Below, one piece after another: positions 1 to 23,870 of a DNA stretch of 64,000 nucleotides. Under the pieces are notes generated by a model. The model saw only the letters and a program-made list of their open reading frames with translations. It did no database searches and was not told where the DNA came from. The position numbers and the translations under genes are program-made. Every line of letters starts with the position of its first letter. The first letter of the stretch is position 1. The DNA is from Thermoanaerobaculia bacterium (GTDB lineage Bacteria > Acidobacteriota > Thermoanaerobaculia > Multivoradales > Multivoraceae), in contig OY761158.1 in the NCBI GenBank assembly GCA_963664405.1, positions 6,020,556 through 6,084,555 on the forward strand. The letters run 5' to 3'.

Positions 1-60
1 CGGAGGGCCCTTTCGCTTCTTAGACCACCAGATCAGACCGCTCTTTTTCGCGAATTGGGG

Positions 61-587
61 CTAAGCAAGGAGCAAGCCTGTCTTTGCGTTAGTAGCCCGG
101 GGCGTTTTCCACAAGATCTTTGAGATCTTGGGAACGCTGACGCGGCAGTAGCGAGTCTGGGGTGCGGGTGGATACCGAAATAACCTCCGCCAGCCGGGCG
201 CGGTCACAGCGCCGCCGGGCCTCCGCGCCGGCCCTCCAGGTCCGCTCCGAGACATCCGCCACGCGCTGAATCGGCGGGAAGTGCAAGCTGAGCGCCCGAG
301 CCGCCCCCGGAGAAAGTTCGGACCATCATTCGCCGTCAGAAACCCATGCGCCCGCGTGGTGAGCGCCAGTTTGCACGCCGTCACGTTCGACACGATCTGG
401 TCGTCCGAGGTGCGAGCGATCCATTCGTCCTGACTTCGGGCCCAGATGACGCAGTTTTGACATGGTGTTGACGGGCGGCCTCACGGACGGATCGGCGCGC
501 GCCGAGGGCGACGTAGGCGAGGAAGGCCGCGTAGGATTTAGTGGTTTCGTCGGCGCGGCGGTCCCAGAGTCGCGGGGTGTCGGTCAT
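61..587 (-). pseudogene. Degraded ORF(s) split over three minus-strand frames (381-587, 61-393, 89-286) upstream of parA. The N-terminus is MTDTPRLWDRRADETTKSYAAFLAYVALG. This may be a decayed plasmid-backbone gene
   Basis: Three short overlapping minus-strand ORFs in different frames, with no intact long ORF. The product family was not recognised confidently. Confidence 0.2.
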
Positions 588-869
588 TCGGCGTGCCTCT
601 AGCTTGCTAGTAAACCACGGCTACAAATACTTTCTGACGGCCCCGCGTTCGGCGGTCGCGCCCGCCGAGTAGTGAGCGACCATGCGGGCGCTTCCCCTTC
701 CCCGCTGACCGGGAATACGCGAGCGCCGATTCCAACCCGGCCAACGTGCGATTCAGCCCGGATTGAAACCCCGCCGCGCCGCCCGATCCCCGGTGGCTAT
801 CGAAGCGCGGCCCGAACACCGCGCCGGCCACCTACCCCGCCGAGCCACAATCGTTGACCCCAAACCTCC

Positions 870-917
870 TGCATGCTAGCATGACTGCATGCAAGCATGT
901 TCGCATGTTTTCATGCT
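870..917. promoter_or_regulatory. Iteron cluster 1: tandem GCATGC-nn-GCATG repeats directly upstream of parA. Candidate centromere/operator (parC-like) of a type Ib partition system
   Basis: Sequence tgcatgctagcatgactgcatgcaagcatgttcgcatgttttcatgc has at least six GCATG cores at 2-4 bp spacing. A TTGACC -35-like hexamer lies at 854-859. The same 13-bp unit recurs at 1867-1916 and 2707-2738. Confidence 0.55.
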
Positions 918-982
918 ACTCCCTTCAAGGCCCGGATCGGCCTCCCCTCTCTCGGTATCAACAGCAACAGGAGTTTTCATCA

Positions 983-1638
983 TGGCTATCAAAGTAGCCG
1001 TCGTTTCCCAGAAAGGCGGTGTCGGAAAAAGCACCATCGCCCGTCTGATTGGCCGCGAGTTTGCCCACAATGGCTGGCTTGTCAAGATCGCGGACATGGA
1101 CGTGCAGCAAGGAACCAGCTACCACTGGTACAAACGCCGAGCTGCCAATCAGGTAGTACCGGAGATCCGCACCGAAACCTTTACGAGCGTCAACATAGCC
1201 CTGACCGAAGCGGACAATTTCGATCTGTTCATCTTTGACGGTGCGCCCCACGCCACTGCTGCTACCCGAGACATGGCCCTTGCCTCCGATCTGGTGATCC
1301 TGCCTACGGGCCTTGCTGTTGATGATCTGCACCCGCAAATAGGGCTTGCTCACGAACTAACCCACCAGCACGGCCTGGAACCGGACAAGCTCGCCTTTGT
1401 CCTCTGGCGGGTAGGTGACAGCGAAATCGAGATACGGCACGCAAGGGAGTACATCGAGACAGCAGGCTACAGCGCCCTTGCCGGTGACGTGCCGGAACGC
1501 ACCGCCTATCGTCGTGCAAGCGACGCCGGACGCACTGCCACCGAAACGCAGTACAAAACCCTCAACCACCGCGCCGACATAACCGCACAGAGCATCATCG
1601 ACGCAATCACCAAGATTGCCAACAGAAAGGCCGCTTAA
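983..1638 (+). CDS. parA: ParA/Soj-family partition ATPase (small type Ib ParF-like)
   Basis: Deviant Walker A motif VAVVSQKGGVGKST. Size about 218 aa from M at 983, although the ORF track starts earlier at 889. It is followed immediately by a small RHH-like partner gene. Confidence 0.85.
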
Positions 1639-1875
1639 ATGAGCAAGATAGATGGACTTAAAAAGCCCACAAACAACCCCAAGGGAGCGCCACCCGGACC
1701 AGCCGAGGCACCGGCGAACCTTCTGCGACCCCCGATAGGGGAGAGCGTACCGTTTCAGGTCCGAATACCCGCCACCTACAAGCGCGACTTCAAGACAGAT
1801 GCAGCAGCCAGCGAAATCACTTCCAGTCAACTGTTCTTAAAGGTGTACGACTTCTACAAAGAACACCATGCATGA
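1639..1875 (+). CDS. ParG-like small centromere-binding protein (C-terminal ribbon-helix-helix)
   Basis: 78-aa ORF beginning one base after the parA stop. The C-terminal pattern FQVRIPATYKRDFKTDAAASEITSSQLFLKVYDFYKE is a beta-strand followed by two helices, typical of ParG/omega-type RHH partners. Confidence 0.55.
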   Translation: MSKIDGLKKPTNNPKGAPPGPAEAPANLLRPPIGESVPFQVRIPATYKRDFKTDAAASEITSSQLFLKVYDFYKEHHA

Positions 1876-1916
1876 CAGCATGCTTGCATGCAATCATGCT
1901 TGCATGATACAACATG
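1867..1916. repeat. Iteron cluster 2 (CATGCTTGCATG x2 plus further GCATG cores) downstream of the partner gene
   Basis: Sequence catgcatgacagcatgcttgcatgcaatcatgcttgcatg. Confidence 0.5.
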
Positions 1917-2187
1917 GAAATGGTTTGTTAAGACTTTTCCTGTATCAATGAAGGGGAAACACAGTCTCGTTGTGAACAGTGGAGAAGGGGAGCACATGGC
2001 GGATTTGGAAGACTTCTACTACGACCAAAAAGCTACAGAGCTGGCAGAGAAGCTAGTACGGACGCTCCAACAGGACCGCGACGAACTCGGCAACGAAGCG
2101 CGAGCCAATCTCAGCCGCGAACCGAATCGAAGAAACATCCATCATCCCAAAGACACGGCCAAAATCGCCCTTCAACTTGGCTGCTGA
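1888..2187 (+). CDS. Hypothetical small protein. The real start may be M at 1996 (MADLEDFYYDQK...)
   Basis: ORF in the lower-GC island. No recognisable domain. Confidence 0.3.
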   Translation: MQSCLHDTTWKWFVKTFPVSMKGKHSLVVNSGEGEHMADLEDFYYDQKATELAEKLVRTLQQDRDELGNEARANLSREPNRRNIHHPKDTAKIALQLGC

Positions 2188-2297
2188 TACATCTGCCACT
2201 GAAGTCCTCCAACCCCCGCCAGCCCTCAAGCCGGAGCCGCCTGGACCCACAGGACCGTGATTTACCGAATCCAGACGGTAAAGGAGAACCGAAAATC

Positions 2298-2783
2298 ATG
2301 AAACATAATCCATTCCTCCTAGCTCCCATCATGCTTCTCTTTCTTGTCAATCCTGCCAATGCTGCCATTTCAGGGTCTAGCTACATGAACGACTTAGACG
2401 ATGTGCAGCGCGAAGCGTTTCTGTTTGGTGCCCTAGAAATGGCCATCTCCATCTATTCCAAAGAGGAGAGAGGTGAGAAGGCGGTTTGTGTGGGCCAGTG
2501 GTTTTCCAGTTCGAGAGAGGACGCTGAGAAGGAGATAATGGATTTCATGTCCAATCCCAACAATGGAAAATACACCGCATCAGGTCTTATAGGAATTAAT
2601 TGTGGTGGATCGGCATTGCCCCGACGATCCGAAAACCACAGCGCAGCCGAGTGGGGGAGGGGAGTACAACAATTTGACCCACTGCAAGGCGATCATCAAA
2701 CTAAACAGCATGCAAGCATGAATACATGCAACCATGCTGGTTTGTGGACACCTGCACGTTGTCGGTTGACGGGTTTAGAGTAA
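2298..2783 (+). CDS. Hypothetical secreted protein (N-terminal signal peptide)
   Basis: MKHNPFLLAPIMLLFLVNPANA is a hydrophobic signal-like N-terminus. The region is AT-richer than its surroundings. A plausible RBS aaggagaa lies 8 nt upstream. Confidence 0.45.
   Translation: MKHNPFLLAPIMLLFLVNPANAAISGSSYMNDLDDVQREAFLFGALEMAISIYSKEERGEKAVCVGQWFSSSREDAEKEIMDFMSNPNNGKYTASGLIGINCGGSALPRRSENHSAAEWGRGVQQFDPLQGDHQTKQHASMNTCNHAGLWTPARCRLTGLE
2707..2738. repeat. Iteron cluster 3 (GCATGCAAGCATG plus ATGCAACCATGC) inside the 3' end of ORF 2298-2783
   Basis: Sequence cagcatgcaagcatgaatacatgcaaccatgc uses the same unit as clusters 1 and 2. Confidence 0.45.
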
Positions 2784-3282
2784 CCCTGCACGATCGAGCA
2801 GTAGAAAATACGGATATGCACGCATTAGGCGTGGTTTAGATCTGTGAACAACTAGAAGTTGAGTATTGACGAGCGCAGAAGAAGCATGCCACCATCGCAT
2901 CTGATACAACGCCAAGCGGGAAGAACAAGGTATGACCAAACAGAGGGATCGGGGAGAAGGGTTTCAAGAGATCGGCGGACTGATTCAGAACGTTGTGAAG
3001 GAGTACAAGGAGTACAAGCCTCTTAGTCTGGTGGAGAAGCGGCTAATCAAGAATTCCACCGAGATCAGGACATTTCCACCCGAAGAAGTAAACTTCCTGC
3101 ACTCGCTCTTCTGCCAAACTATCTTGCCCTATCGCAGCCTCCCTGAGCGCGTTTGGGAACATGCCAATGGCCGAGCAAATGTCCGCGTCGAAGCGGGGAG
3201 CGCCTATCACCCGGACAGCGACAAATTCGTGGTCATGGAGGCCTGTGGCTCCGCGCACTACTGGGGCCGGGAAATAGGAGAG

Positions 3283-5130
3283 TGAGAGTGAGCACGATAA
3301 TCGATGGCGGTCCGATCACGATAAGTGATGGTCGCGTAGCCTTTTGAAGGACTTAGCCGAAGCTGCGTTTCGCTGCCACTTGCCTCAGACGGTCTTGTTC
3401 ACAGTATTTGATGGCGATTCGAGGAAACCCGATCACGTTGTCTGGTGGGAATGGGTGTTCCGTTCAAGGTATCTGAGGGCGCAACCAGGGGCCCAAGCGC
3501 GATGGAAGCTCGGCGAACCGCCTCGATCGCCCATCAGATAGCGTGCCGTTCATCCCATCGCTGCGTGTCAGCCCTCGTTCAGCGTGATCAGCGAAAGAAC
3601 AAGTATGGACTGCGCGTCAGGCCCCGACGGCGGATGTGTCCCGTTTTTTGTGGAAATGGGTTCAGGCGTAGTCCTCCGAGTCGTCTTTTGCTAAATCCTA
3701 CCGTTTACGCGGCCCTCTCAACCTCGAGCAGGAGCTGAAGCGCCCGGTAGCCGTTAATCCTTCGCAGGTGTATCTGCCCGAAGGCGACGAGCCCCCAGAG
3801 GAGCGTGACGCCGGCAGCCTCGGTGGCAAAGGAGCCCTGGGTTTTAGTGCGGCGACGAAACTCGCGGTTCAGGTTCTCCAGAGCGTTGGTCGTGCGCACC
3901 GAACTCCACAGCGATTTGGGGAGCTCGTAGAAGGTCAGTAGCTGGAACCCTGCCTCCTCAAGGCTGCGAGCCACCGCCGGGACTAGTCGCGACCACTTGG
4001 TGACGAACGCCGCGTAGGCCTTGCGGGCCTGTGCCGCGTCCTCGGCTCGTACGATCGAGTGCCAGTCACGCCGCAGCTCGTCGTGTGCGTGCACCGGGCA
4101 GTGTTTCTTCAGATTCTCCCACTTGTGTTGGACGCAGCGCTGGACTTTGACCTCAGGCCAAGCCTTCAGCGCCGCGGCCAGCCCTTTGTGGCCATCCGTG
4201 ACCAGGTAGCGCGGAGCCTGAAGACCTCGGGCCTTCAGATCCTCGATCAGCCACTTCCAGTGCTCGGCGGCCTCGCTCGCGGCTAAACGTAAGGCCACCA
4301 GCACCTTGGTGCCGTCCGGAGTCACACCCAGCACCACCAGCACCGGTACCGAGACCACTCGACGGGCCAAGCGGACCTTCAGGTGAAAGCCATCGAGAAA
4401 CAGAAGCACGTAGGACTCCTCCGACAGATCGCGCTCACTCCAGCGAGCAAAAAGCTCCTTCAGCCGAGACACCACACGCGAAACTGCGCTCTTGGACAGG
4501 TGCTCCTCACCCAGCAGCGGAGCCAATGCCTTCTTGATCCGGCGGCTGTTAGCGCCAGCCAGATACGCACCCAGGATCGCGTCATCGACCTCCTGCGTAC
4601 GACGAGCGTAACGCGGCACGATCGCACTGCGAAACTCTACGCTGGCCCCATCCTCGCCGACTAGCCGTCCTCGTGGAATGTCCAGTTCCTTCGACCCACA
4701 CGCCGTCGTGATCAGACGACGCTGCTTGCCGTTGCGATAGCCCGCACGCTCGCCTGAACGCTCGTAGGCGCTGCAGCCCAGCGCCTCGGACAGCTCTTCC
4801 TCGAGTGTGATCTCGATCGCCGCACGAACACGCTCGCGTAACAACGAACGAATGTCCTGACGGAAGCGTGCAGCTTCCCCTTCCTCGTTGATATTCTCCA
4901 CCATGGCGTAATCCTCCGTTCGCCCTAACCGGCGATGTGTTTGACCACTAGGAGGTTACGCCATTCTCAATTTCCACAGCATTCGGGACGGATCCCCGAC
5001 GGCCCGCCTTCGGCGGGGATGATGCCGACGGACCTAGTCTTGAGCACACTACTTGAGGGACCAAACACCCTTCCCTCACCTACCGTGCTCAGAATGGCCA
5101 ACATTCCCATCGATTATCGTGCTCACTCTC
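3283..5130 (-). mobile_element. IS256-family insertion sequence with perfect 25-bp terminal inverted repeats TGAGAGTGAGCACGATAATCGATGG
   Basis: The left IR at 3283-3307 is the reverse complement of the right IR at 5106-5130. Comparison with the uninterrupted copy (6651-6675 ggagagctcggcc) shows an apparent GAGAG duplication at the junctions. The element encodes a Transposase_mut-type protein. Confidence 0.85.
3705..4904 (-). CDS. IS256-family (mutator-type) transposase
   Basis: 399 aa. Motifs GYRNGKQRRLITTACGS...PRGR, SKSAVSRVVSRLKE, LFLDGFHLKVR and VTDGHKGL are characteristic of the IS256 family. Confidence 0.9.
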   Translation of the reverse strand: MVENINEEGEAARFRQDIRSLLRERVRAAIEITLEEELSEALGCSAYERSGERAGYRNGKQRRLITTACGSKELDIPRGRLVGEDGASVEFRSAIVPRYARRTQEVDDAILGAYLAGANSRRIKKALAPLLGEEHLSKSAVSRVVSRLKELFARWSERDLSEESYVLLFLDGFHLKVRLARRVVSVPVLVVLGVTPDGTKVLVALRLAASEAAEHWKWLIEDLKARGLQAPRYLVTDGHKGLAAALKAWPEVKVQRCVQHKWENLKKHCPVHAHDELRRDWHSIVRAEDAAQARKAYAAFVTKWSRLVPAVARSLEEAGFQLLTFYELPKSLWSSVRTTNALENLNREFRRRTKTQGSFATEAAGVTLLWGLVAFGQIHLRRINGYRALQLLLEVERAA

Positions 5131-5976
5131 AGAGAGCTCGGCCACTCGGTCGTCCTGCTGCCACCCCACCTGACCCACCGCTATGTCGGCGCCCACAAGA
5201 CCGATCGAACCGACACCAAAGGCATGCTCGAGGCGTATCGCAACGAAGACATCCTGCCTGTCCCTGTCAAGTCGCTCGAGCAACAAACGCTCACCACTCT
5301 GCATCGGATGCGCGCGGCCTACATCGGCGATCGTACGGCTCACTGCAACGCTCTACGCGGGCACTTGCGAGAATTCGGACACTTCATCCCTCTAGGACGT
5401 GCGCGCGTCGTGCCGAGGGTCCGAGAGCTGATCGCCGACGCCGAGACGGACATCCCCATGGCATTGCGCCCTCACTTCGCAGCGCAATGCGATCAGATCG
5501 AGCAGTTCCACGAGCGTATCGCGGAGATCGACAACCACATCCAAGCGCTCGCCAAACAGCTCGAAGCCGTGCAGCTGCTGATGACCATTCCTGGCATCGG
5601 GGTCCTGACCGCCACGGCCCTGGTGGCCTGGATCGGAGATGTCTCTCGCTTCAAGAGCGGACGCCATCTTGCCAGCTATCTCGGGCTCACGCCGCGCGAA
5701 CACTCCAGTGGCGCACGACGCTGGCTCGGACGCATCAGCAAACGCGGCGACGGCTATCTGCGCACGCTCCTGATCCACGGGGCCCGCTCCGTGCTGTCGT
5801 GGGCGAAGAGAAAACAACCCCAAGGCCGCCTCCAACAGTGGGCGCTGCACGTCGATACCCGCCGAGGACCCAACAAAGCCGCCGTTGCCCTCGCCAACAA
5901 GTTGGCCCGCATTGTCTGGGCCGTGTGGACCCGTAAGCGCGCCTTCGAGCCCAAGCCGTTGCTCGCTGCTGCCTAA
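5131..5976 (+). pseudogene. IS110-family transposase, C-terminal approximately 282 codons only. The N-terminal RuvC-like part was lost by truncation and the IS256 insertion
   Basis: Identical to residues ELGHSVVLLPP...KPLLAAA of the intact copy at 6464-7501. Confidence 0.85.
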
Positions 5977-6298
5977 GACGACCGAACGACCACAACCTAC
6001 TCGTAACCCCCATCCACTCACAGCTCGATCCAAGGACTTTGATGGTTTCCAGTCAGACTGGCGTGAGGGCACAAGCCGCTAGGAGCGTTGGCCCTCGAGG
6101 CCGTTTTCTCGGACGATTCGGCTCCCTCACGCGCACTTTTCCATCATGGCCCGGCGTGCACACATCGTCACGCCAATCTGAGGCCGGAGATACGTCTGCT
6201 GTCTGACCTACCACTCTCAGCCCGAAGACCGAGAAAACCAGAATCTCTCTATGAGTTGAAATCAACTACTTGACACGGGAGTCCAGATACACGCTCCT

Positions 6299-7825
6299 AG
6301 CCCCAGAAAACGCGCCTTCGGCCCGTTTTCCGGCCCATCCCCGCCTGAGAACTACTCGCCTGTCCGATACTCGGATGATGAAATGGACTCCCTGGCGACT
6401 TCGATCGGCATCTGTGTGCCGCGGGTCGCCCAAACCGAAACTCTAGTACTGGAAGGGAGCCCCATGAAGCATACCGTTATCGGTGTCGACCTGGCCAAGG
6501 ATGTGTTCGAGATCGCCGTGTCGCATGAGCCGGGAAAGGTGGCGGACCGGCATCGAGTCCGAAGAGCTGGCTTTTTGTCTTTCTTCGCACAACGCAAGCC
6601 CACGACGGTGGTCATGGAGGCCTGTGGCTCCGCGCACTACTGGGGCCGGGAAATAGGAGAGCTCGGCCACTCGGTCGTCCTGCTGCCACCCCACCTGACC
6701 CACCGCTATGTCGGCGCCCACAAGACCGATCGAACCGACACCAAAGGCATGCTCGAGGCGTATCGCAACGAAGACATCCTGCCTGTCCCTGTCAAGTCGC
6801 TCGAGCAACAAACGCTCACCACTCTGCATCGGATGCGCGCGGCCTACATCGGCGATCGTACGGCTCACTGCAACGCTCTACGCGGGCACTTGCGAGAATT
6901 CGGACACTTCATCCCTCTAGGACGTGCGCGCGTCGTGCCGAGGGTCCGAGAGCTGATCGCCGACGCCGAGACGGACATCCCCATGGCATTGCGCCCTCAC
7001 TTCGCAGCGCAATGCGATCAGATCGAGCAGTTCCACGAGCGTATCGCGGAGATCGACAACCACATCCAAGCGCTCGCCAAACAGCTCGAAGCCGTGCAGC
7101 TGCTGATGACCATTCCTGGCATCGGGGTCCTGACCGCCACGGCCCTGGTGGCCTGGATCGGAGATGTCTCTCGCTTCAAGAGCGGACGCCATCTTGCCAG
7201 CTATCTCGGGCTCACGCCGCGCGAACACTCCAGTGGCGCACGACGCTGGCTCGGACGCATCAGCAAACGCGGCGACGGCTATCTGCGCACGCTCCTGATC
7301 CACGGGGCCCGCTCCGTGCTGTCGTGGGCGAAGAGAAAACAACCCCAAGGCCGCCTCCAACAGTGGGCGCTGCACGTCGATACCCGCCGAGGACCCAACA
7401 AAGCCGCCGTTGCCCTCGCCAACAAGTTGGCCCGCATTGTCTGGGCCGTGTGGACCCGTAAGCGCGCCTTCGAGCCCAAGCCGTTGCTCGCTGCTGCCTA
7501 AGACGACCGAACGACCACAACCTACTCGTAACCCCCATCCACTCACAGCTCGATCCAAGGACTTTGATGGTTTCCAGTCAGACTGGCGTGAGGGCACAAG
7601 CCGCTAGGAGCGTTGGCCCTCGAGGCCGTTTTCTCGGACGATTCGGCTCCCTCACGCGCACTTTTCCATCATGGCCCGGCGTGCACACATCGTCACGCCA
7701 ATCTGAGGCCGGAGATACGTCTGCTGTCTGACCTACCACTCTCAGCCCGAAGACCGAGAAAACTAGAATCTCTCTATGAGTTGAAATCAACTACTTGACA
7801 CGGGAGTCCAGATACACGCTCCTAG
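6299..7825 (+). mobile_element. IS110-family element copy 2 (apparently intact). The left end abuts the right end of copy 1, giving a head-to-tail tandem
   Basis: Boundaries are inferred from where the copy1/copy2 identity begins and ends. There are no obvious terminal inverted repeats, as is typical of the IS110 family. An outward-facing TTGACA lies 24 bp from the right end. The right end is followed by a 16-bp perfect palindrome. Confidence 0.75.
6464..7501 (+). CDS. IS110-family (DEDD) transposase
   Basis: 345 aa from MKHTVIGVDLAKDVFEIAV. The N-terminus has the typical DEDD/RuvC-like fold and the C-terminal domain is present. An identical second copy lies at 5131-5976. Confidence 0.9.
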   Translation: MKHTVIGVDLAKDVFEIAVSHEPGKVADRHRVRRAGFLSFFAQRKPTTVVMEACGSAHYWGREIGELGHSVVLLPPHLTHRYVGAHKTDRTDTKGMLEAYRNEDILPVPVKSLEQQTLTTLHRMRAAYIGDRTAHCNALRGHLREFGHFIPLGRARVVPRVRELIADAETDIPMALRPHFAAQCDQIEQFHERIAEIDNHIQALAKQLEAVQLLMTIPGIGVLTATALVAWIGDVSRFKSGRHLASYLGLTPREHSSGARRWLGRISKRGDGYLRTLLIHGARSVLSWAKRKQPQGRLQQWALHVDTRRGPNKAAVALANKLARIVWAVWTRKRAFEPKPLLAAA

Positions 7826-7830
7826 GTTGG

Positions 7831-7868
7831 GTAGGTCTGGGAATGGTGATTGCCATTCCCAGACCTAC
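7831..7868. repeat. Perfect 16-bp-stem palindrome GTAGGTCTGGGAATGG-tgattg-CCATTCCCAGACCTAC abutting the IS110 right end. Likely REP-like target of the IS
   Basis: Read directly from the sequence. The IS110/IS1111 family is known to insert next to palindromic repeats. Confidence 0.7.
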
Positions 7869-7875
7869 TGATGCC

Positions 7876-7960
7876 GTTTGGCGCCGCGGACGGCGCGCGT
7901 CGCCCATCCGGAGGACCGGATGGCCTCCCTGCTTCGGAAGGGGTGCCTCTTGCGGATTGA
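7876..7960. repeat. REP-like repeat (type a) with hairpins GCGCCG-cgga-CGGCGC and CCATCCGG-agga-CCGGATGG
   Basis: A second copy with the same order and hairpins lies at 9827-9990. The hairpin core is shared with the 127-133-bp repeat family at 20078 and 23550. Confidence 0.65.
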
Positions 7961-7998
7961 GCATTTCCAGGCTCCTGGGATATATGCTCCGGTGATCC

Positions 7999-8703
7999 GT
8001 GAGCTGGATTTCCGATCCCAATGCCTGGATCGCCCTGGCGGCGCTGACGTCGATCGAGATCGTTCTCGGTATCGACAACATCATCTTCATCACGATTCTC
8101 GTCGGCCGCCTGCCCGAGGCCGAGCGGGGTCGTGCGCGCACGTTTGGGCTACTGCTGGCGATGCTGACCAGGATTGCCCTGCTCTTCTCACTGACCTTCT
8201 TCATGGGCCTCACCGAGCCGCTGCTGGTGGTCCTGGGGCACGAGATCTCGTGGCGTGATGTCATCTTGATTGCTGGGGGTCTCTTCCTTTTGGGCAAGAG
8301 CACCTTCGAGATTCACGCCAAGCTCGAGGGCGGTCACGGGGCTCCATCGTCGGGCTCGCGTGGTGGCTTCTTGATGGTGATGGGCCAGATCGCCCTTCTC
8401 GACATCGTGTTCTCCATCGACTCGGTGATCACTGCCATCGGTTTGGCCGACCAGGTGGTGATCATGGTCATCGCCGTTGTTGCGGCAGTGCTCGTCATGC
8501 TAGTTTCGGCAAGACCCATTGGAGATTTCGTCGAGCGGCACCCGACCTTGAAGATGCTCGCGTTGAGCTTCTTGCTCTTGATCGGAACAACGCTCGTGGC
8601 GGATGGCCTCGGGTTTCACTTCCCGAAAGGCTATGTCTATTTCGCGATGGCGTTCTCGGTGTTTGTCGAAATGCTCAATCTGCGCTTGCGCAGAGTGTCG
8701 TAA
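7999..8703 (+). CDS. TerC-family integral membrane protein
   Basis: Multi-pass hydrophobic protein with TerC signatures (LGIDNIIF..., SIDSVITAIGL...). Confidence 0.8.
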   Translation: MSWISDPNAWIALAALTSIEIVLGIDNIIFITILVGRLPEAERGRARTFGLLLAMLTRIALLFSLTFFMGLTEPLLVVLGHEISWRDVILIAGGLFLLGKSTFEIHAKLEGGHGAPSSGSRGGFLMVMGQIALLDIVFSIDSVITAIGLADQVVIMVIAVVAAVLVMLVSARPIGDFVERHPTLKMLALSFLLLIGTTLVADGLGFHFPKGYVYFAMAFSVFVEMLNLRLRRVS

Positions 8704-8745
8704 GCTCCACACCAGCGAAGAAATTTTTAGAAGAGGAGAGCAGGT

Positions 8746-9780
8746 ATGAAGGTCCTATCTAGAATCGGTGCAGGTGCGTTCAGCCTCTTGACTCTGGCGA
8801 CCTCGGTGCCGGGTCCCGCCCGGGCGCAGAACGTCGGGCTTTGCGTGGCGAATGCATTTGCGGATCAAGTGGCTGACTTGATTGAGGAGCACGACGGTGC
8901 GACCCTGATCCGCTTTGGCAACCTGCCGGACTTGGTGGAAAAGGTCGGGGGTTGTGACGCCGTTATCGCCGTCCCAGGTGGAGGCACCGACCAGGTTCTC
9001 CGCGCCGGGTCCCGCTTACAGTGGCTACAAACCGCGAGCGCTGGGGTCGAGACCCTACTCCGCTCCGACGAGCTCGTTGCTTCGGACGTGACACTGACCA
9101 ACGCAAAGATCCTGCAGGGCCCGGAGATCGCCGATCACGCTTTCGGACTGCTGTTGACGCTCACCCGTGACATCCGTTTCTTCAACGCGCAGACCTCATG
9201 GAACCGCGCAAACTCTCTTCCAATCATCGAGCTGCGCGGCAAGACCGCTCTCATTATCGGCCTAGGGGGCATCGGTACTCAGATCGCGCAGCGTGCGGCG
9301 GCGTTCGAGATGCGCGTCATCGCTGTCGATCCCAAGGACATTCCGCTCAGTAGGGATGTAGCCTATGTCGGCAAACCGGACCAGCTCGACGAGCTCTTGC
9401 CGCAGGCCGACGTCGTCTTTAGCAGCGTCCCGCATACCCCCGCTTCTCGCGGCATGCTCGGCAAGGAGCAGTTTGCGCGGATGAAGGAAGGTGTCTATGT
9501 GGTCAACGTGTCGCGCGGCCCGATCATTGACACCGACGCTCTGGTTGCCGCGCTGCGCTCCGGCAAAGTGCGTGCAGCGGGTCTCGACGTCACCGACCCC
9601 GAGCCATTACCCGACGGTCATCCTCTGTGGTCGATGCACAACGTCGTCATCACGCCGCACATAGCGACTGTGTCTGACCATTCCATCGAGCGGCGAGTCG
9701 AACTGTTCCGCGACAATATCGGGCGTTTCCTCGATAACCGTCCCTTGCGCAACGTGGTCGACAAGAAGAAGGGGTACTGA
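8746..9780 (+). CDS. D-isomer-specific 2-hydroxyacid dehydrogenase family protein, NAD-binding, with an N-terminal signal-peptide-like segment
   Basis: GxGxxG motif (GLGGIGTQIA). The catalytic region includes RGPIIDTDAL and a conserved His in the C-terminal part. The N-terminus MKVLSRIGAGAFSLLTLATSVPGPARAQ looks like a cleavable signal peptide. Confidence 0.8.
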   Translation: MKVLSRIGAGAFSLLTLATSVPGPARAQNVGLCVANAFADQVADLIEEHDGATLIRFGNLPDLVEKVGGCDAVIAVPGGGTDQVLRAGSRLQWLQTASAGVETLLRSDELVASDVTLTNAKILQGPEIADHAFGLLLTLTRDIRFFNAQTSWNRANSLPIIELRGKTALIIGLGGIGTQIAQRAAAFEMRVIAVDPKDIPLSRDVAYVGKPDQLDELLPQADVVFSSVPHTPASRGMLGKEQFARMKEGVYVVNVSRGPIIDTDALVAALRSGKVRAAGLDVTDPEPLPDGHPLWSMHNVVITPHIATVSDHSIERRVELFRDNIGRFLDNRPLRNVVDKKKGY

Positions 9781-9826
9781 GTCTGAGAGTGGTGAATACC
9801 ACTCTCAGACTCAGTTTGTTGTTTGG
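9778..9826 (+). terminator. Rho-independent terminator: 15-bp perfect stem TGAGTCTGAGAGTGG / CCACTCTCAGACTCA, loop tgaata, then a T-rich tract gtttgttgttt
   Basis: Read directly. The stop codon of the upstream gene is the first three bases of the stem. Confidence 0.8.
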
Positions 9827-9990
9827 CGCCGCGGACGGCGCGTGTTGGCCATCCGGAGGACCGGATGGCCAACTGGCTTCGGAGCAGGCGATCTTCGGAA
9901 GACCTGCTGTTTGGCGCTGCGGTGGCGCGCGTTGCTGATCAGGCGGACCGGTGGGACCCCTGGCTTCGAAGGAGCGATCTCCTTCCTAGC
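9827..9990. repeat. REP-like repeat (type a), second copy. It carries the same GCGCCGCGGACGGCGC and GGCCATCCGGAGGACCGGATGGCC hairpins as 7876-7960
   Basis: Direct sequence comparison. Confidence 0.65.
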
Positions 9991-10918
9991 GGGCCTTGCT
10001 GGTTGAGGCCTGGGAGGCCGTTGCTCGAGAGGGCCCGGATCGGGCTTCGCGGTAGGTGATGTAGGTGGTGCTGGCGAAGATGATGGCGCCTCCGATCCAG
10101 GTCGGGAGCTCTGGGACCTCGCCAAAGATGAAGAACCCCAGCAGGCTGGCCCATACCAGTCGGGTGAAGTCGACCGGAAGCACCGCGCTGGCGTCGGCCT
10201 GAACGAAGGCCTCGGCCATGCACAGGTGGGCGAGGGTTCCTACGGCTCCCATCAGGACCAGCCAGGGGTAGTCACCTGGCGCGGGCCAGGTCCATACGAA
10301 TGCGGCAGGGATCAGGGAGAGAGGCGCCATGAAGATGCCCATCCACAGCCCGAGAGTGAGGCTGGAGTCTGTGCTCGAGATCGTCTTGATGACCAGGAGT
10401 GCGATTGCCCACCCGGCGGAGGAGAGGAGCACGAGGAATAGACCCGTGTCAATTTCGGCGCCCGGCTGCAGCACGATCATGGCACCGGCGAAGCCGAGAG
10501 CGAGCGCTGCGATGCGGCGCCTGTGGAGGGCTTCGCCAAGAAAGAGGACAGCTCCGATCGTGGCGAAGAGAGGCGCTGTGAAGCCCATCGCCGAGACTCT
10601 GGCAATGGGAGTCAGGGTGAGCGCGGTGAAGAAGAGCAGCATCGATCCCATCTGGAGCACAGAGCGTAGAGCGTGCAACGGCAGGCGGGTCGTGTGAAGA
10701 GGGGCGATTCCCCTGCGTACAAGCACTGGGGCAAGAACCAAGAGTCCGAAGAAGTTGCGGAAGAAGGCGATCTCGAAGGGATGGAGATCTGCAGAGAGAA
10801 TGCGGATCAGGGCGTGCATGGTGGAGAAGCCAACGGCGGCAATAGCGACGAGGAGCATTCCGCGCACTTGGTTCGGAGCGCGCACAGACCCCTGTGCCTG
10901 CGGAGGAAGCGTGCTCAT
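9986..10918 (-). CDS. DMT-superfamily (EamA-like) transporter
   Basis: Ten predicted TM segments and a duplicated EamA-like architecture. Confidence 0.8.
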   Translation of the reverse strand: MSTLPPQAQGSVRAPNQVRGMLLVAIAAVGFSTMHALIRILSADLHPFEIAFFRNFFGLLVLAPVLVRRGIAPLHTTRLPLHALRSVLQMGSMLLFFTALTLTPIARVSAMGFTAPLFATIGAVLFLGEALHRRRIAALALGFAGAMIVLQPGAEIDTGLFLVLLSSAGWAIALLVIKTISSTDSSLTLGLWMGIFMAPLSLIPAAFVWTWPAPGDYPWLVLMGAVGTLAHLCMAEAFVQADASAVLPVDFTRLVWASLLGFFIFGEVPELPTWIGGAIIFASTTYITYREARSGPSRATASQASTSKAR

Positions 10919-12162: not shown

Positions 12163-14174
12163 TTAGGGTCGGCGCGGAAATAAGTTTCCAGTATCTGGGG
12201 TGACCATACCACTGCCCCCTTCTTCAGCCACCGCATAATCCTCCGGTACGCGCCTTGTTTGCAAGGTTTAGAGCTAGCATAGCCCTGCCCGCATTTGGTA
12301 TAGTTTTCCCTGTCACCTCTTTTGGAAGGGGAACTATACCAAATGGTACGAGCCGAAGATCGTGATGCAACAGTGCGCGAGCTCTTGATGAGCGAACAGA
12401 TGGCCACCATGGATGAGCTCAAGGACGCCATGGGAACCCGAGCCACCATGACGGTCTACCGTTCGCTGTCTCGATTGGGCTATTTGGCCAGCTACTCGGA
12501 TCGAGGGCGGTTCTATACCTTGAACGAGATTCCCGATTTCGACGATCTGGGTTTGTGGTCGTGCGGTTCGGCGAGGTTCAGTCGGCATGGCAGCCTCCTC
12601 GAAACTGCGGTGGCTGCCGTGGACCGGTCCGCTGCCGGCTATACGGCTTCTGAACTCGAGCTCCTGCTGCAGGTCGAGGTCAAGCACGCGATGTTGCACC
12701 TCGTTCGTCGCAAGAGAATCGTACGATCCAGAGTTGGGAAGAGGTTCGTATACTTGTGCTCGGAAACAGGGCGCCGTCGTCAGCAGAAGCTGATGCGCAA
12801 CGAACGGCAGGCTCTCCAGGATGTAGCTGCCAGCCTCGTTCCAGAAGTGCTCCCCGAGGAGCTCAGGGCTGCCATCGTTTTATTCTTCAGCCTGCTAGAC
12901 GAACGCCAGCGGCGGCTCTTCGCTGGCCTGGAAGCGACCAAGCTCGGGCATGGCGGCGACCGGAAGATCGCCGATCTTCTGGACCTGGACCCTCATACAG
13001 TCGCAAAAGGACGTCGCGAGCTCTTCGGCGGCTCCGTGGAGCGCGGAAGAGTTCGAAGAGCAGGCGGTGGCAACCAACGAGTGGAAAAAAAACGCCCGAG
13101 ATAGTCGATGGAATCCATTCCATACTCGAGGCCGATATAGCTGGTGATCCCATGTCATCAAAAAGATGGACGCACGAGACCGCTGCAAAGGTGGCCCAAT
13201 GCCTTGCCGAACGCCTTGACATCATCGTATCGGCTACGGTGGTGCGTCGATTGCTCGCAGACCTGAACTATTCCCTCAAGAGCAATAGGAAATGTCTGTC
13301 TTCGGGGAACTCCCCAGATCGTGATGCACAGTTCAAGGCCATCAAGCGACTGCGCGAGGATTTCACAAGCGCTGGCGACCCGATCATCAGCGTCGATACG
13401 AAGAAGAAGGAGCTGATCGGTCGGTTCAAGAACCAGGGACAGACATGGTGCCGCGAGGCCAAGCGGGTCAAGGATCACGACTTCCGGTCCGAAGCTCTCG
13501 CCATCGCCTCCCCCTATGGGATCTACGATCTTCAGAGGAACTTCGGCGTTCTCGTCCTCGGACAGTCGTCGGACACGCCGGAGTTCGCTGTCAACAGCAT
13601 CGCGACCTGGTGGCTCAAATACGGTCGATCTCACTATCCGGCGTCTCAGCGTCTCCTCATTCTTGCCGACAGCGGCGCAAGCAACGGCGCACGGCTTCGA
13701 GCCTGGAAGAAGTACCTCCAGGAGAAGCTCGTAGACAAGTGCGGCCTCATCATCACCGTCGCCCACTATCCAACTGGCACCAGTAAATGGAATCCCATCG
13801 AGCACAGGATGTTCAGCGAGATCAGCAAGAACTGGGCCGGAGTTCCTCTCGAGAGTTTCGAGATCCTCGTCAACCTCGTCCGCAACACGACGACATCCAC
13901 CGGACTGCGCGTCGAGCCGTGCCGTGATCAACGCCAATACCAGAAAGGAGTCAGGGTATCGGACAAGGAAATGCTGCAGCTCGCGGTGGCCAGGAGCGAC
14001 TTCCTAGGAAAGTGGAACTACACCCTCTCGCCGAGACCGCGAACCGAGCAGGAAGAGCTTGCCCCACAGCCTGGGCTCAGCTCACCACCACCTCCAATGC
14101 AGCGACCGCCCTGTGGCGCCTCGGCCTCACACGCTCCGGCGATAATGTGAAGTTATTTCCGCGCCGACCCTTAG
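12163..14174 (+). mobile_element. ISAzo13-like insertion sequence with about 21-bp terminal inverted repeats (C)TTAGGGTCGGCGCGGAAATAA
   Basis: Left 12163-12184 versus the reverse complement of right 14151-14174 gives 19/19 identity plus CTTA/CTAA. The transposase gene lies inside. It appears to have inserted into a small ORF (11911-12183) whose last codons run into the left inverted repeat. Confidence 0.7.
12344..14150 (+). pseudogene. ISAzo13-family transposase, frameshifted in an A8 homopolymer at 13085-13092. The N-terminal part is in the frame of ORF 12322-13104 and the C-terminal part in the frame of ORF 12756-14150
   Basis: N-terminal motifs: LDERQRRLFAGLEATKLGHGGDRKIADLLDLDPHTVAKGRREL...GGG. 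C-terminal motifs: KKTPEIVDGI...AGDPMSSKRWT, SVDTKKKELIGRFKNQGQTW, HYPTGTSKWNPIEHRMFSEIS. One extra A (A9) would restore RVEKKTPEI. So this is either a real -1 mutation, a sequencing error or transcriptional slippage. Confidence 0.75.
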
Positions 14175-14220
14175 TCGCTCGTTTCGAGGGTGGGGTCTCG
14201 GAAGCCGCCGCTCGACGGGG

Positions 14221-14644
14221 CATGGAGCTTTTCGACGAATGGAAGGAAACGGAGATGGCCAGGCTCCAGAGCGAGCTCGGCAGCCTGGAGAGGCAGCGGG
14301 CAGGGAATGAGCTCGAGGCCCACAAACGGGAGTTCGAGAGCGAGATCCGGCGAGACGCAGTAGCTCGCAGCGATGCCGGCACCCGCGGAAGGATGTCGGA
14401 GAGCCTGGCGCCCTACCTACCAGGGTTCGAGTTCGAAGTCAGAGACGCCAGGTTCCTCGGCTCGCCGATCGACTTCGTGGTCTTTGACGGCCTTCATCGA
14501 GATCGGTGTGATCGCGTGGTCCTGGTCGAGGTGAAGAGTGGGCGCTCCACTCTCAGCACCCGAGAACGACGGGTTCGTGATGCGGTTCTGGAGGGGAGGG
14601 TCGAGTGGAGGGAGCTTCACGTCGAGTTGGAGGAGCCGGAGTGA
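14221..14644 (+). CDS. Putative PD-(D/E)xK nuclease related to archaeal Holliday-junction-resolvase-like endonucleases (N-terminal coiled coil plus C-terminal nuclease core)
   Basis: C-terminus IDFVVFDG...VVLVEVKSGRSTLSTRERRVRDAV fits a D...E-V-K catalytic pattern. The start is uncertain: MELFDEWKE at 14221, or an upstream GTG beyond the IS end. Confidence 0.45.
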
Positions 14645-20077: not shown

Positions 20078-20209
20078 CTAGGCTCCAGAAATGATGGCTA
20101 TCATTTCCTCCGCCTAGTTGTCTTTTGGCGCCGAGGACGGCGCACTCAGGCGTTGCTTCCTATTCGCTCCGGGAAACGGCTCTGGCCGAATACTCGGACA
20201 CGCTCCTAG
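20078..20209. repeat. Single copy of the 127-133-bp structured repeat unit (CTAG...GAAATGAT-nnnn-ATCATTTC...TTGGCGCCGAGGACGGCGC...CCGAATACTCGGACACGCTCCTAG)
   Basis: About 95% identical to the units at 23550-23809. It lies in the divergent promoter region between the 19058-20011 gene (minus) and the 20449-21348 gene (plus). Confidence 0.75.
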
Positions 20210-23549: not shown

Positions 23550-23870
23550 CTAGGCTCCAGAAATGATGGCTATCATTTCCTCCGCCTAGTTGTCTCTTGG
23601 CGCCGAGGACGGCGCACTCAGGCGTAGCTTCTTATTCGCTCCGGGAAACGGCTCAGGCCGAATACTCGGACACGCTCCTAGCCTCCAGAAATGATTGATA
23701 TCATTTCCTCCGGCTAGTTGCCCTTTGGCGCCGAGGACGGCGCACTCGGGCGTAGCTTCCTATTCGCTCCGGGAAACGGCTCAGGAGGAATACTCGGACA
23801 CGCTCCTAGCCTCCGGGAGTGATCGCTATCTAGTTTCTGTTTGGCGCCGAGGACGGCCCATTCGGAGTCC
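23550..23870. repeat. Tandem array of about 2.5 copies of the 127-133-bp structured repeat, immediately upstream of the amidase start codon
   Basis: Units at 23550-23676, 23677-23809 and a degenerate partial 23806 to about 23870. Each is bounded by CTAG and contains the GAAATGAT/ATCATTTC and GGCGCCGAGGACGGCGC hairpins. There are no spacers, so this is not CRISPR. Confidence 0.8.

What the first reader, a model, noticed from the sequence alone, without database searches (positions are those of the whole stretch)
3227..7870. Head-to-tail IS110-family tandem, with copy 1 truncated and pierced by an IS256-family element
Two IS110-family copies are directly abutted, with the right end of copy 1 joined to the left end of copy 2. 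This is the arrangement expected of IS110-family dimers or circle-junction-like structures. The right end carries an outward TTGACA that could pair with a -10 supplied by whatever lies next.

Copy 1 has lost its left end and the first ~48 codons, and carries a complete IS256-family element (25-bp perfect inverted repeats) inserted into the transposase reading frame. The uninterrupted copy 2 gives the exact pre-insertion sequence and shows an atypically short apparent GAGAG duplication.

Copy 2 ends against a perfect 16-bp palindrome followed by a REP-like repeat. That is consistent with the family's known preference for inserting beside palindromic repeats.
Basis: seen in the sequence. Interest (0 to 1): 0.55.

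Follow-up and report, generated by a model that had tools for sequence, protein, structure and literature searches.

The report
Two guided IS copies, not a dimer
The apparent head-to-tail IS110 "dimer" is two separate copies of a 1,439-bp IS1111-type insertion sequence sitting in neighbouring repeat units. One copy has been wrecked by a nested transposon and split by a 38.9-kb plasmid-like insert, which is ordinary mobile-DNA clutter with one odd junction.

Summary
The sequence facts hold: 54/54 and 1,168/1,169 identical bases between the two copies, a 1,849-bp insert with perfect 25-bp inverted repeats, a GAGAG duplication, and a 16-bp palindrome followed by a REP-like repeat.

The interpretation needs revising in four places.

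1. The real IS is 1,439 bp (copy 2 = 6375-7813), not the 1,525-bp period. It is an IS1111-group element with subterminal inverted repeats and a conserved two-loop RNA in its 3' non-coding region. That RNA's guides match a 20-nt site (TTCTCGG^ACACGCTCCTAG) in short REP-like units. The two copies occupy adjacent, different units and are 86 bp apart, so there is no RE-LE circle junction.
2. Copy 1 has not lost its left end. Nucleotides 1-233 lie 38,862 bp upstream, fused to the 3' part of repA, and window 2932-3228 is the 5' part of that repA. A plasmid-like segment sits inside copy 1, with nucleotide-exact reciprocal junctions and no microhomology.
3. The "IS256 with 25-bp IRs" is a 1,364-bp IS256-family element with an 8-bp duplication, nested in a 477-bp non-autonomous element. 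The outer element owns the 25-bp repeats and the 5-bp duplication.
4. The palindrome plus REP downstream is the next unit of the array, not the target.

Verdict: a new member of a known kind, of low to moderate interest.

The parts
1..3228 (+). Right-hand 3.2 kb of a 38,862-bp plasmid-like segment inserted in IS copy 1. It contains parA (982-1638), small ORFs and the 5' part of repA.
   Evidence: ParA by Pfam and NCBIfam. The segment is colinear at 98.5-99.2% with the independent contigs L011 and L093, which carry an uninterrupted repA.
2932..3228 (+). repA codons 1-99 (RepA_C-family replication initiator). Codons 100-322 are at L005 1088-1759 / L010 10226-10897.
   Evidence: The rejoined 322-aa protein is 100% identical to the intact RepA of L093. 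It aligns without gaps to full-length homologues.
3229..3282 (+). IS copy 1, nt 234-287.
   Evidence: 54/54 identical to 6608-6661. The complementary nt 1-233 are at L010 9993-10225, with 0 mismatches.
3283..5131 (.). Composite insertion. The outer 477-bp non-autonomous element (3283-3631 plus 4996-5131) has perfect 25-bp TG...CA inverted repeats and subterminal GATAATCGATGG-like repeats. It is flanked by a 5-bp GAGAG duplication (3278-3282 and 5132-5136).
   Evidence: An empty copy lies at L008 5624-6101. Identical composites occur in L007 (6-bp duplication CATGGG) and L008.
3632..4995 (-). A 1,364-bp IS256-family element nested in the outer element. Its tnp is at 3705-4904, it has imperfect inverted repeats (GGATGTGTCCCG... 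/ ...CGGGACGGATCC), and its 8-bp duplication CCGACGGC lies at 3624-3631 and 4996-5003.
   Evidence: The same 1,364-bp core occurs alone, with 8-bp duplications, at L005, L006 and L009. The empty outer element has a single CCGACGGC. Pfam Transposase_mut and NCBIfam IS256 match.
5132..6288 (+). IS copy 1, nt 283-1439 (the first 5 nt repeat GAGAG). It includes a second copy of the 3' non-coding RNA region (about 6054-6206).
   Evidence: One mismatch to copy 2, at 6239. The end is defined by GGGAGTCCAGAT.
6289..6300 (+). Y box (ACACGCTCCTAG). This is the 3' part of the long 'A-type' repeat unit that hosts copy 1.
   Evidence: The same 12 nt follow CTCGG directly in the empty units at 20198-20209, 23670-23681 and 23798-23809.
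6301..6374 (+). 5' part (74 nt, CCCCAG...ATACTCGG) of the short 'S-type' repeat unit that hosts copy 2.
   Evidence: It is only 88-89% identical between loci whose IS cores differ by 0-2 nt of 1,439. An empty S unit lies at L012 3991-4077.
6375..7813 (+). Intact IS1111-group element, copy 2 (1,439 bp).
- tnp: 6464-7501 (345 aa).
- Subterminal inverted repeats: TGGACTCCC at 6384-6392 and GGGAGTCCA at 7802-7810.
- Outward -35-like TTGACA: 7795-7800.
   Evidence: Boundaries come from L003, L012, L095/L096 and the empty units.
7579..7731 (+). Candidate seek/bridge RNA in the 3' non-coding region, with two stem/internal-loop/hairpin modules.
- Loop 1: GCUAGGAGCGU is antisense to right-flank ACGCTCCTAGC, and UUCUCGGAC equals left-flank TTCTCGG plus AC.
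- Loop 2: CCAUCAU is antisense to the LE sequence ATGATG, and AGAUAC equals the RE end plus AC.
   Evidence: The consensus fold of six relatives has 41 pairs, 11 of them with compensatory changes. The guide co-varies with the flank. There was no Rfam hit.
7814..7825 (+). Y box (ACACGCTCCTAG) of the S-type unit that hosts copy 2.
7826..7938 (+). The next repeat unit of the array ('B-type'): a perfect 16-bp palindrome at 7831-7868, then a conserved REP-like core at 7876-7938.
   Evidence: The same layout occurs at 9776-9883.
20082..20209 (+). An empty A-type unit carrying an unoccupied target (…AATACTCGG^ACACGCTCCTAG).
23554..23809 (+). Two empty A-type units head to tail (23554-23681 and 23682-23809), followed by a partial unit.

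Best explanation
The locus is a short array of REP-like units (A-type, S-type, B-type) lying between a DUF5916 gene and terC.

A 1,439-bp IS1111-group element inserted independently into the A unit (copy 1) and the S unit (copy 2). Each insertion is at the same 20-nt site, TTCTCGG^ACACGCTCCTAG. The element has a DEDD transposase, subterminal inverted repeats and a long 3' non-coding region.

Target choice is most likely RNA-guided. The 3' non-coding region encodes a two-loop seek/bridge RNA. In its first loop, one strand is antisense to the right target flank and the other repeats the left flank plus AC. Its second loop matches the IS ends. Arrays of target-bearing units are common in this genome, so two neighbouring occupied units look like a 1,525-bp tandem.

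Copy 1 was later inactivated twice:
- A composite transposon inserted after IS nt 287, with a 5-bp duplication. It is an IS256-family element nested in a 477-bp TG...CA element.
- A 38,862-bp plasmid-like circle (repA, parA, a tyrosine recombinase, several ISs) recombined at IS nt 233/234 with repA codon 99/100. This displaced the IS left part 38.9 kb upstream.

Shown: the boundaries, the nesting, the reciprocal junctions, and the conserved RNA fold with guide-flank co-variation.

Inferred: that the RNA is made and guides insertion, that the two insertions were independent, the order of events, and the mechanism of plasmid entry.
For: Boundaries:
- IS cores of copy 2, L003 and L012 differ by 0-2 nt of 1,439, while the adjoining 74-75-nt 'left ends' are only 88-89% identical.
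- Copy 1's left flank is a different unit, 116 nt and A-type.
- A second IS, with a 73%-identical Tnp, has two copies that are 99.93% identical. One sits in an A unit and one in an S unit, with homology starting at the CTCGG|ATGATG junction.
- Empty A and S units have CTCGG directly followed by ACACGCTCCTAG.
- Subterminal inverted repeats lie 9 nt from the left end and 3 nt from the right end, and co-vary in L013.

RNA:
- The alignment of six relatives gives a two-module fold with 11 compensatory pairs.
- The reverse complement of the 5' guide matches each element's own right flank. The scores are 10/11, 10/11, 8, 8, 8 and 7, the last two with a +/-1 offset read by eye from the printed guide and flank strings. 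Non-cognate pairs that do not share or resemble the target score 1-6.
- In L097 the 3' guide CGCCAC equals left-flank CGCC plus AC.
- The order, with the top-strand match 5' of the bottom-strand match, and the position downstream of tnp fit the IS1111 seekRNA and bridge RNA descriptions (PMC11187229; PMC11208160).

Plasmid split:
- L010 9993-10225 equals IS nt 1-233, with 0 mismatches, and is fused to repA codons 100-322.
- The rejoined repA DNA is contiguous in L011, and the rejoined protein is 100% identical to the intact 322-aa RepA of L093.

Nesting.
Against: - No reads, RNA data or transposition assay are available. The contig is a metagenome assembly.
- The whole 3' non-coding region does not fold better than shuffled sequence (z = -0.71).
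- Matches of the 3' guide to the left flank are imperfect in L098 and L099, and I could not resolve L013's left boundary.
- The crossover 'core' is ambiguous. Only one A is shared by the left junction (GG|AT) and the right junction (AT|AC).
- I cannot exclude that repeat units and the IS sometimes move together as modules, as reported for ISPpu9 (PMC12288879).
- The mechanism that joined repA to the IS interior is unknown. There is zero microhomology (TTC|ATT versus ACG|GTG).
- About 15.9 kb of the insert's interior was not retrieved.
Confidence: 0.8

Rival explanations
1. One reading: the mobile unit is the 1,525-bp repeat (CCCCAG...GCTCCTAG). The two copies form a true head-to-tail IS dimer whose internal RE-LE joint equals the circle junction. 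The short A and S units elsewhere are internal-deletion MITEs of this IS that insert at CTAG.
For: - The period is exactly 1,525 bp, and the single copy L003 is flanked by GCTCCTAG on both sides.
- All units start after CTAG and end in CTAG, and they form head-to-tail arrays.
- ISPpu9 shows modular head-to-tail segments with similar end boxes (PMC12288879).
Against: - The 74-nt 'left end' diverges by 11-12% between copies whose remaining 1,439 bp are at least 99.86% identical.
- The same IS core is found behind two unrelated left segments, in copy 1 versus copy 2 and in L095 versus L096.
- The subterminal inverted repeat would lie about 84 nt from the left end.
- The two target guides of the RNA together match a contiguous 20-nt site that exists only in empty units, straddling CTCGG^AC.
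- No promoter-like site lies at the supposed junction.
Confidence: 0.08
2. The tandem arose by duplication of one occupied repeat unit, through unequal crossing-over or replication slippage, rather than by two insertions.
For: The two copies differ by one base only, and repeat arrays favour unequal exchange.
Against: The host units differ: A-type, 116 nt, upstream of copy 1, against S-type, 74 nt, upstream of copy 2. A duplication would copy the same unit. Other copies elsewhere are equally identical, differing by 0-2 nt, so near-identity does not argue for local duplication.
Confidence: 0.07
3. Assembly artefact: the second copy, or the repA/IS chimeras, are mis-joins in a metagenome assembly.
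For: The source is a 2.97-Mb metagenome contig rich in identical IS copies. No reads are available. The second contig carrying the chimeric ORF (P0002, 6.78 Mb) may derive from the same data.
Against: The two junctions are exactly reciprocal in unique sequence, with no base lost or gained in either partner. Mis-assembly at repeats would not produce that. The two IS copies also have different flanks, one SNP, and two large insertions present in only one of them.
Confidence: 0.05

Closest known systems
IS1111-group elements with a 3' seekRNA / bridge RNA (ISEc11, ISPa11, ISKpn4; PMC11187229; Durrant et al. PMC11208160)
   Same: - A DEDD transposase of 345 aa with a GLTPREHSSG motif (GL-P----SG).
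- The longer non-coding region lies downstream of tnp.
- Subterminal inverted repeats (9 bp).
- No target duplication and a fixed target site.
- An RNA with one segment complementary to the top strand lying 5' of one complementary to the bottom strand.
   Different: - Closest public relatives outside this lineage share at most 65% protein identity.
- The target is a 20-nt site in Acidobacteriota repeat units.
- The top- and bottom-strand matches abut rather than clearly overlap.
- The shared 'core' at the two junctions appears to be a single A.
- The RNA is not demonstrated.
ISPpu9 / ISPpu10 of Pseudomonas putida and IS621 of E. coli (IS110-family ISs that insert in REP sequences; PMC12288879, Tobes & Pareja 2006)
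   Same: Site-specific insertion into a repeated extragenic element. Several copies per genome sit at equivalent positions, and small repeat modules lie head to tail next to the IS.
   Different: Those are IS110-group elements with the RNA upstream of tnp. Here the IS cores and the host units have clearly different divergence, so co-mobilisation of modules is not supported.
True IS tandem dimers, (IS)2, and circle junctions (IS30, IS21, IS911, IS256; IS110/IS492 minicircles)
   Same: Two same-orientation copies lie close together, with a conserved outward -35 box (TTGACA) near the right end.
   Different: The copies are separated by 86 bp of target-repeat DNA. The abutted RE-LE joint (CCAGAT|ATGATG) is absent, so no junction promoter is formed in the chromosome. 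In a circle the joint would give TTGACA-N17-TGAAAT preceded by TGn. That last point is inference.
IS256 family
   Same: A Mutator-type transposase (Pfam PF00872, NCBIfam NF033543), 1,364 bp long, with imperfect terminal inverted repeats and an 8-bp duplication at four independent sites.
   Different: None of note. What is unusual is only that it rides inside a 477-bp foreign element, and that the composite has itself transposed at least three times.
RepA_C / ParA plasmids integrated in chromosomes
   Same: An intact repA-parA backbone occurs on separate 11-56-kb contigs in other samples. Here it is circularly permuted at repA, as expected of single-crossover integration.
   Different: The junctions lie in unique sequence, with no homology, no duplication, no IS and no att-like repeat.

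Membership tests
IS110 family, IS1111 group | DEDD (RuvC-like) N-terminal domain plus a PF02371 C-terminal domain | tested here: met
   PF01548 at 9.6e-14 and PF02371 at 8.6e-29. NF033542 'IS110 family RNA-guided transposase' scores 337 bits against a cut-off of 140.
IS110 family, IS1111 group | Transposase of 330-350 aa with a GL-P----S(t)G motif (PMC11187229) | tested here: met
   345 aa. GLTPREHSSG is read in the translation.
IS110 family, IS1111 group | The longer non-coding region lies downstream of tnp | tested here: met
   With the revised ends, 89 nt lie upstream (6375-6463) and 312 nt downstream (7502-7813).
IS110 family, IS1111 group | Subterminal inverted repeats of 7-17 bp | tested here: met
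   TGGACTCCC (6384-6392) pairs with GGGAGTCCA (7802-7810). L013 has GGACTCCTC / GAGGAGTCC, which is a compensatory change.
IS110 family, IS1111 group | An NCR-derived RNA whose loops pair with both strands of the target and with the IS ends | tested here: inconclusive
   A conserved fold and guide-flank co-variation across six relatives support it. There is no Rfam model hit, no expression data, and the 3'-guide matches are imperfect in some relatives.
IS110 family, IS1111 group | Site-specific insertion without target duplication | tested here: met
   The same site is used at five occupied loci, and empty sites are contiguous. At most one A is shared by the two junctions.
IS tandem dimer / circle junction | The right end of one copy is joined directly, or through the core only, to the left end of the next | tested here: not met
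   86 bp (6289-6374) separate the IS ends, and that sequence is target-unit DNA.
IS tandem dimer / circle junction | A junction promoter is assembled across the joint | tested here: not met
   No sigma-70-like site was found in 5900-8000.
IS256 family (element 3632-4995) | Mutator-type DDE transposase, about 1.3-1.5 kb, imperfect terminal inverted repeats, 8-9-bp duplication | tested here: met
   PF00872 at 2.2e-87 and NF033543 at 296 bits. The element is 1,364 bp, with 8-bp duplications at four sites.
IS256 family (whole 1,849-bp insert 3283-5131) | The terminal inverted repeats and duplication belong to the transposase-bearing element | tested here: not met
   The 25-bp inverted repeats bound a 477-bp element that exists empty at L008. 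That element's duplications are 5-6 bp.
RepA_C plasmid replicon | A full-length RepA_C initiator next to parA | tested here: met
   PF04796 matches at 1.1e-11 on the rejoined protein. It is identical to an intact 322-aa RepA next to the same parA on L093. Autonomous replication was not tested.

The most novel reading that the evidence does not exclude
The 38.9-kb plasmid-like element entered the transposase gene of IS copy 1 by a conservative, nucleotide-exact reciprocal exchange between two unique sequences. The partners share no homology, no duplication and no shared core (repA ...AAATTC|ATTGAG... with IS ...CGACG|GTGGTC...). If this reflects a dedicated recombinase, for example the element's own tyrosine recombinase acting at unrelated sites or an unrecognised guided system, rather than a one-off topoisomerase or end-joining accident, it would be a new route of plasmid integration.
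Probability: 0.08. Interest if true: 0.6.

Novelty: new member of a known kind. Interest (0 to 1): 0.3.

Why it matters
- **IS boundaries.** It is a clean natural example of how IS1111-type, RNA-guided elements fill arrays of repeat units. A repeat period read off two neighbouring copies can misplace IS ends by tens of bases and suggest a dimer that is not there.
- **Guide evidence.** Six related elements have different guides matched to their own flanks. In addition, two ISs that are 73% related converge on one 20-nt site. This is useful comparative material for seek/bridge RNA specificity in Acidobacteriota.
- **The open oddity.** The exact, homology-free plasmid junction is the one feature not explained by known mechanisms.
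- **Overall.** Nothing else here changes current understanding.

Tried and rejected
- **Rfam.** A scan of 2500-10500 at E <= 1 found only a chance sRNA hit and no bridge RNA family.
- **Promoter scan.** The supposed RE-LE joint has no promoter-like site.
- **1,525-bp unit.** I first took it as the IS, with the short units as its MITEs. I rejected this.
- **5' deletion of copy 1.** I considered it and rejected it, because L010 carries an A-type unit there.
- **Junction mechanism.** I looked for microhomology, a shared dinucleotide core, integron-, IS91- or att-like motifs, and similarity to the IS's own donor or target at the repA/IS junction. I found none, by reading.
- **IS256 inversion.** Inversion between the two inverted IS256 copies does not simplify the structure.
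- **Empty site.** An exact search for the 32-nt palindrome in JGI metagenomes found nothing.
- **Outer element.** A search for the 25-bp inverted repeat found one contig (L100) with a different interior, a CHC2 zinc-finger ORF cut by the contig end. The family of the outer element therefore stays undetermined.
- **Distant relatives.** Motif searches in the relatives with 38-43% Tnp identity (L015-L091) were uninformative.
- **L013 left boundary.** It could not be fixed.


Full report
**Source.** The window matches ENA metagenome assembly ERZ28669063, contig ctg41100 (2.97 Mb). Window position 1 corresponds to record position 2,776,844. A transposase 100% identical to the one studied here occurs in an Acidobacteriota MAG (CAXWPL010000005.1, L012). 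The host is therefore most likely an acidobacterium. That is inference.

**Checking the observation.**
- Positions 3229-3282 equal 6608-6661 (54/54).
- Positions 5132-6300 equal 6657-7825, with one mismatch (6239 C, 7764 T). The period is 1,525 bp.
- The 1,849-bp insert at 3283-5131 has perfect 25-bp inverted repeats; none are expected by chance.
- GAGAG lies on both sides of the insert and only once in copy 2.
- The 16-bp palindrome (7831-7868) and the REP-like repeat (7876-7938, with copies at 9821 and 9908) are present.

**Where the IS really ends.** Several independent lines agree.
- *Independent copies.* L003 (same contig) and L012 (another MAG) carry the same element. The three cores of 1,439 bp (ATGATGAAATGG...GGGAGTCCAGAT) differ by 0-2 bases.
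- *A related IS.* A second IS in the same contig has a 73%-identical transposase (P0122). Its two copies are 99.93% identical. One lies behind a 116-nt 'A-type' segment (L095) and the other behind a 75-nt 'S-type' segment (L096). Homology between the two loci begins at the CTCGG|ATGATG junction.
- *Empty units.* The window holds three empty A-type units (20082-20209, 23554-23681, 23682-23809). L012 holds an empty A unit and an empty S unit. In all of them ...AAT(A/T)CTCGG is followed directly by ACACGCTCCTAG.
- *Conclusion.* The IS is 1,439 bp, and copy 2 spans 6375-7813. It is inserted between CTCGG and ACACGCTCCTAG of a short repeat unit.
- *Subterminal repeats.* With these ends the element has subterminal inverted repeats: TGGACTCCC 9 nt inside the left end and GGGAGTCCA 3 nt inside the right end. 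L013 shows a compensatory variant.
- *Non-coding regions.* There are 89 nt upstream and 312 nt downstream of tnp.
- *Family fit.* These features, the 345-aa protein and its GLTPREHSSG motif are the published marks of the IS1111 group (PMC11187229; PMC11208160).

**Consequence for the 'tandem'.** The two IS copies end at 6288 and start at 6375. The 86 bp between them are the 12-nt tail of one repeat unit plus the 74-nt head of the next. There is no RE-LE joint, and the promoter scan finds nothing there.

Copy 1's own left flank was found in L010. It is an A-type unit that starts right after the stop codon of a DUF5916 gene. Copy 2 sits in an S-type unit. The simplest reading is two insertions into adjacent units of an array [A][S][B] between DUF5916 and terC. 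Similar arrays occur elsewhere, for example [S::IS][A][S] in L012 and [A][A] at 23554-23809.

The palindrome and REP-like repeat to the right of copy 2 form the next (B-type) unit. A sister unit with another perfect palindrome lies at 9776-9883.

**How the target is probably chosen.** The 3' non-coding region contains, between a closing stem GTGAGGG..GCC / GGC..CCCTCAC, an internal loop with three parts:
- a 5' strand GCUAGGAGCGU, antisense to the right flank ACGCTCCTAGC;
- a capping hairpin GGCC-CUCGA-GGCC;
- a 3' strand UUCUCGGAC, which equals the left flank TTCTCGG plus AC.

Together they cover the contiguous 20-nt site that exists only in empty units. A second module carries CCAUCAU (antisense to the left-end ATGATG) and AGAUAC (the right-end AGAT plus AC).

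I collected relatives with 55-73% protein identity (L013, L095, L097, L098, L099).
- RNAalifold on the six sequences gives 41 pairs, 11 of them with compensatory changes.
- The 5' guide differs between elements and matches each element's own right flank. The matches are 10/11 for the window, 10/11 for L095, 8 for L097, 8 for L099, 8 for L013 at offset -1, and 7 for L098 at offset +1. The two offset values were read by eye from the printed guide and flank strings. Non-cognate pairs that do not share or resemble the target score 1-6.
- In L097 the 3' guide CGCCAC equals its left flank CGCC plus AC.
- The order, with the top-strand match 5' of the bottom-strand match, is the one reported for IS1111 seekRNAs.

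Caveats: no Rfam family matched. The whole region does not fold better than shuffles. The 3'-guide matches are imperfect in L098 and L099, and only a single A is common to both junctions. The RNA and its role are inferred, not shown.

**The outward TTGACA.** This box lies 13 nt from the right end and is conserved in relatives (TTGACA three times, TTGACG, TTGTGG, TGGACA). In a circle, CCAGAT+ATGATGAAAT would place TGAAAT, preceded by TGn, 17 nt downstream. A junction promoter is therefore plausible for the circle but is not formed in this chromosomal arrangement. This is inference.

**Copy 1 is split, not truncated.**
- *The two halves.* L005/L010, 38.9 kb upstream on the same contig, carries IS nt 1-233 with 0 mismatches. 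These are fused in frame to the 3' part of a RepA_C gene. Window 2932-3228 is the matching 5' part.
- *Intact repA elsewhere.* The rejoined 322-aa protein aligns without gaps to full-length homologues. The rejoined DNA is contiguous in an independent contig (L011). The protein is 100% identical to an intact RepA next to the same parA on a 56-kb contig from another sample (L093).
- *The exchange.* Both partners are therefore cut and rejoined without gain or loss of a base: IS nt 233/234 with repA codon 99/100. The order [IS 5'][repA 3']...[repA 5'][IS 3'] is that of a circle integrated by one reciprocal exchange.
- *The insert.* It is 38,862 bp long. It carries parA, a tyrosine recombinase, a TonB-dependent receptor, TniA/TniB-like genes and several ISs. 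About 15.9 kb were not retrieved.
- *Mechanism.* The junctions share no microhomology (TTC|ATT versus ACG|GTG). They resemble neither the IS's donor nor its target. Homologous recombination, transposition and bridge-type recombination are therefore all unlikely. Topoisomerase-mediated exchange, blunt end-joining of a linearised plasmid, or a recombinase acting at a secondary site remain possible. I cannot discriminate between them.

**The 'IS256 element'.**
- *Nested core.* The same 1,364-bp core (3632-4995) occurs alone at L005, L006 and L009. Each of those copies has an 8-bp duplication. Here it is flanked by CCGACGGC on both sides, and the empty outer element in L008 has that octamer once.
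- *Outer element.* It is 477 bp long, has the perfect 25-bp TG...CA repeats and subterminal GATAATCGATGG-like repeats, and carries no transposase.
- *Mobility of the composite.* The composite has moved as a unit at least three times: in the window with a 5-bp duplication, in L007 with a 6-bp duplication, and in L008.
- *Family.* It is undetermined. One metagenome contig (L100) has the same repeat at the end of a different element.

**Rivals.**
- The 1,525-bp-unit/dimer model fails on the divergence pattern, on the two different left segments, on the position of the subterminal repeats, and on the guide-target geometry.
- Local duplication fails because the host units differ.
- Mis-assembly is unlikely given exactly reciprocal junctions in unique sequence. 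It cannot be excluded without reads, and the second contig carrying the chimeric ORF may not be independent.

**Verdict.** This is a new member of the IS1111 group, present twice in a repeat array. One copy has been destroyed by a nested transposon and by an integrated plasmid-like element. The locus is ordinary in kind. The exact homology-free plasmid junction is the only unexplained feature.

Noticed in passing
window 7826-7938, 9776-9883, 9908-9970, 20082-20209, 23554-23900; L010 9877-9992; L012 3863-4077: A family of modular extragenic units. Each has a perfect palindrome whose sequence varies, then a conserved GTTTGGCGCCG(C/A)GGACGGCGC core, then a variable tail. Each A- and S-type unit starts right after a CTAG and ends in CTAG. 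Units are often arranged head to tail and often sit at gene stop codons. What spreads them is unknown.
   Followed up: partly
L095 1412-2888 and L096 1412-2888 (same contig, record ~0.44 and ~0.65 Mb): A second IS1111-type element (Tnp P0122, 73% identical) uses the same 20-nt target. Its guides are nearly identical (GAUAGGAGCGU / CUUUCGGAC). Two distinct ISs therefore compete for one landing site.
   Followed up: partly
L008 3774-6101: A composite copy (outer element::IS256) and an empty 477-bp outer element lie side by side, separated by a single base. No matching duplication flanks the pair.
   Followed up: no
L100 7273-7979 (SXGT01243995.1): The same 25-bp terminal repeat bounds a different element. 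Its interior encodes a CHC2 (DnaG-type) zinc-finger ORF, and the contig ends inside it. This may be a lead to the autonomous partner of the 477-bp element.
   Followed up: partly
window 982-1638 (parA) and L092, L093: The identical 218-aa ParA is on 14 contigs, from under 2 kb to over 1 Mb, in several samples. The plasmid-like backbone is therefore widespread and appears both on small contigs and inside large ones.
   Followed up: partly
window 6239 vs 7764 (IS nt 1390): This is the only difference between the two local IS copies. Copy 1, L003 and L012 have C and copy 2 has T, so copy 2 carries the derived base. The position lies downstream of the candidate RNA.
   Followed up: yes
window ~13150-14650 (from L001 gene list): An ISAZ013-type DDE transposase gene lies next to an Endonuc_Holl (Holliday-junction resolvase-like) gene. 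It is further mobile-element content to the right of the studied locus.
   Followed up: no
L011 9409-10877 and 3407-8772: The related plasmid-like contig has its repA broken at a different place by an IS4/IS5-type (DDE_Tnp_1) element and carries other IS insertions. This backbone is a frequent IS target.
   Followed up: no
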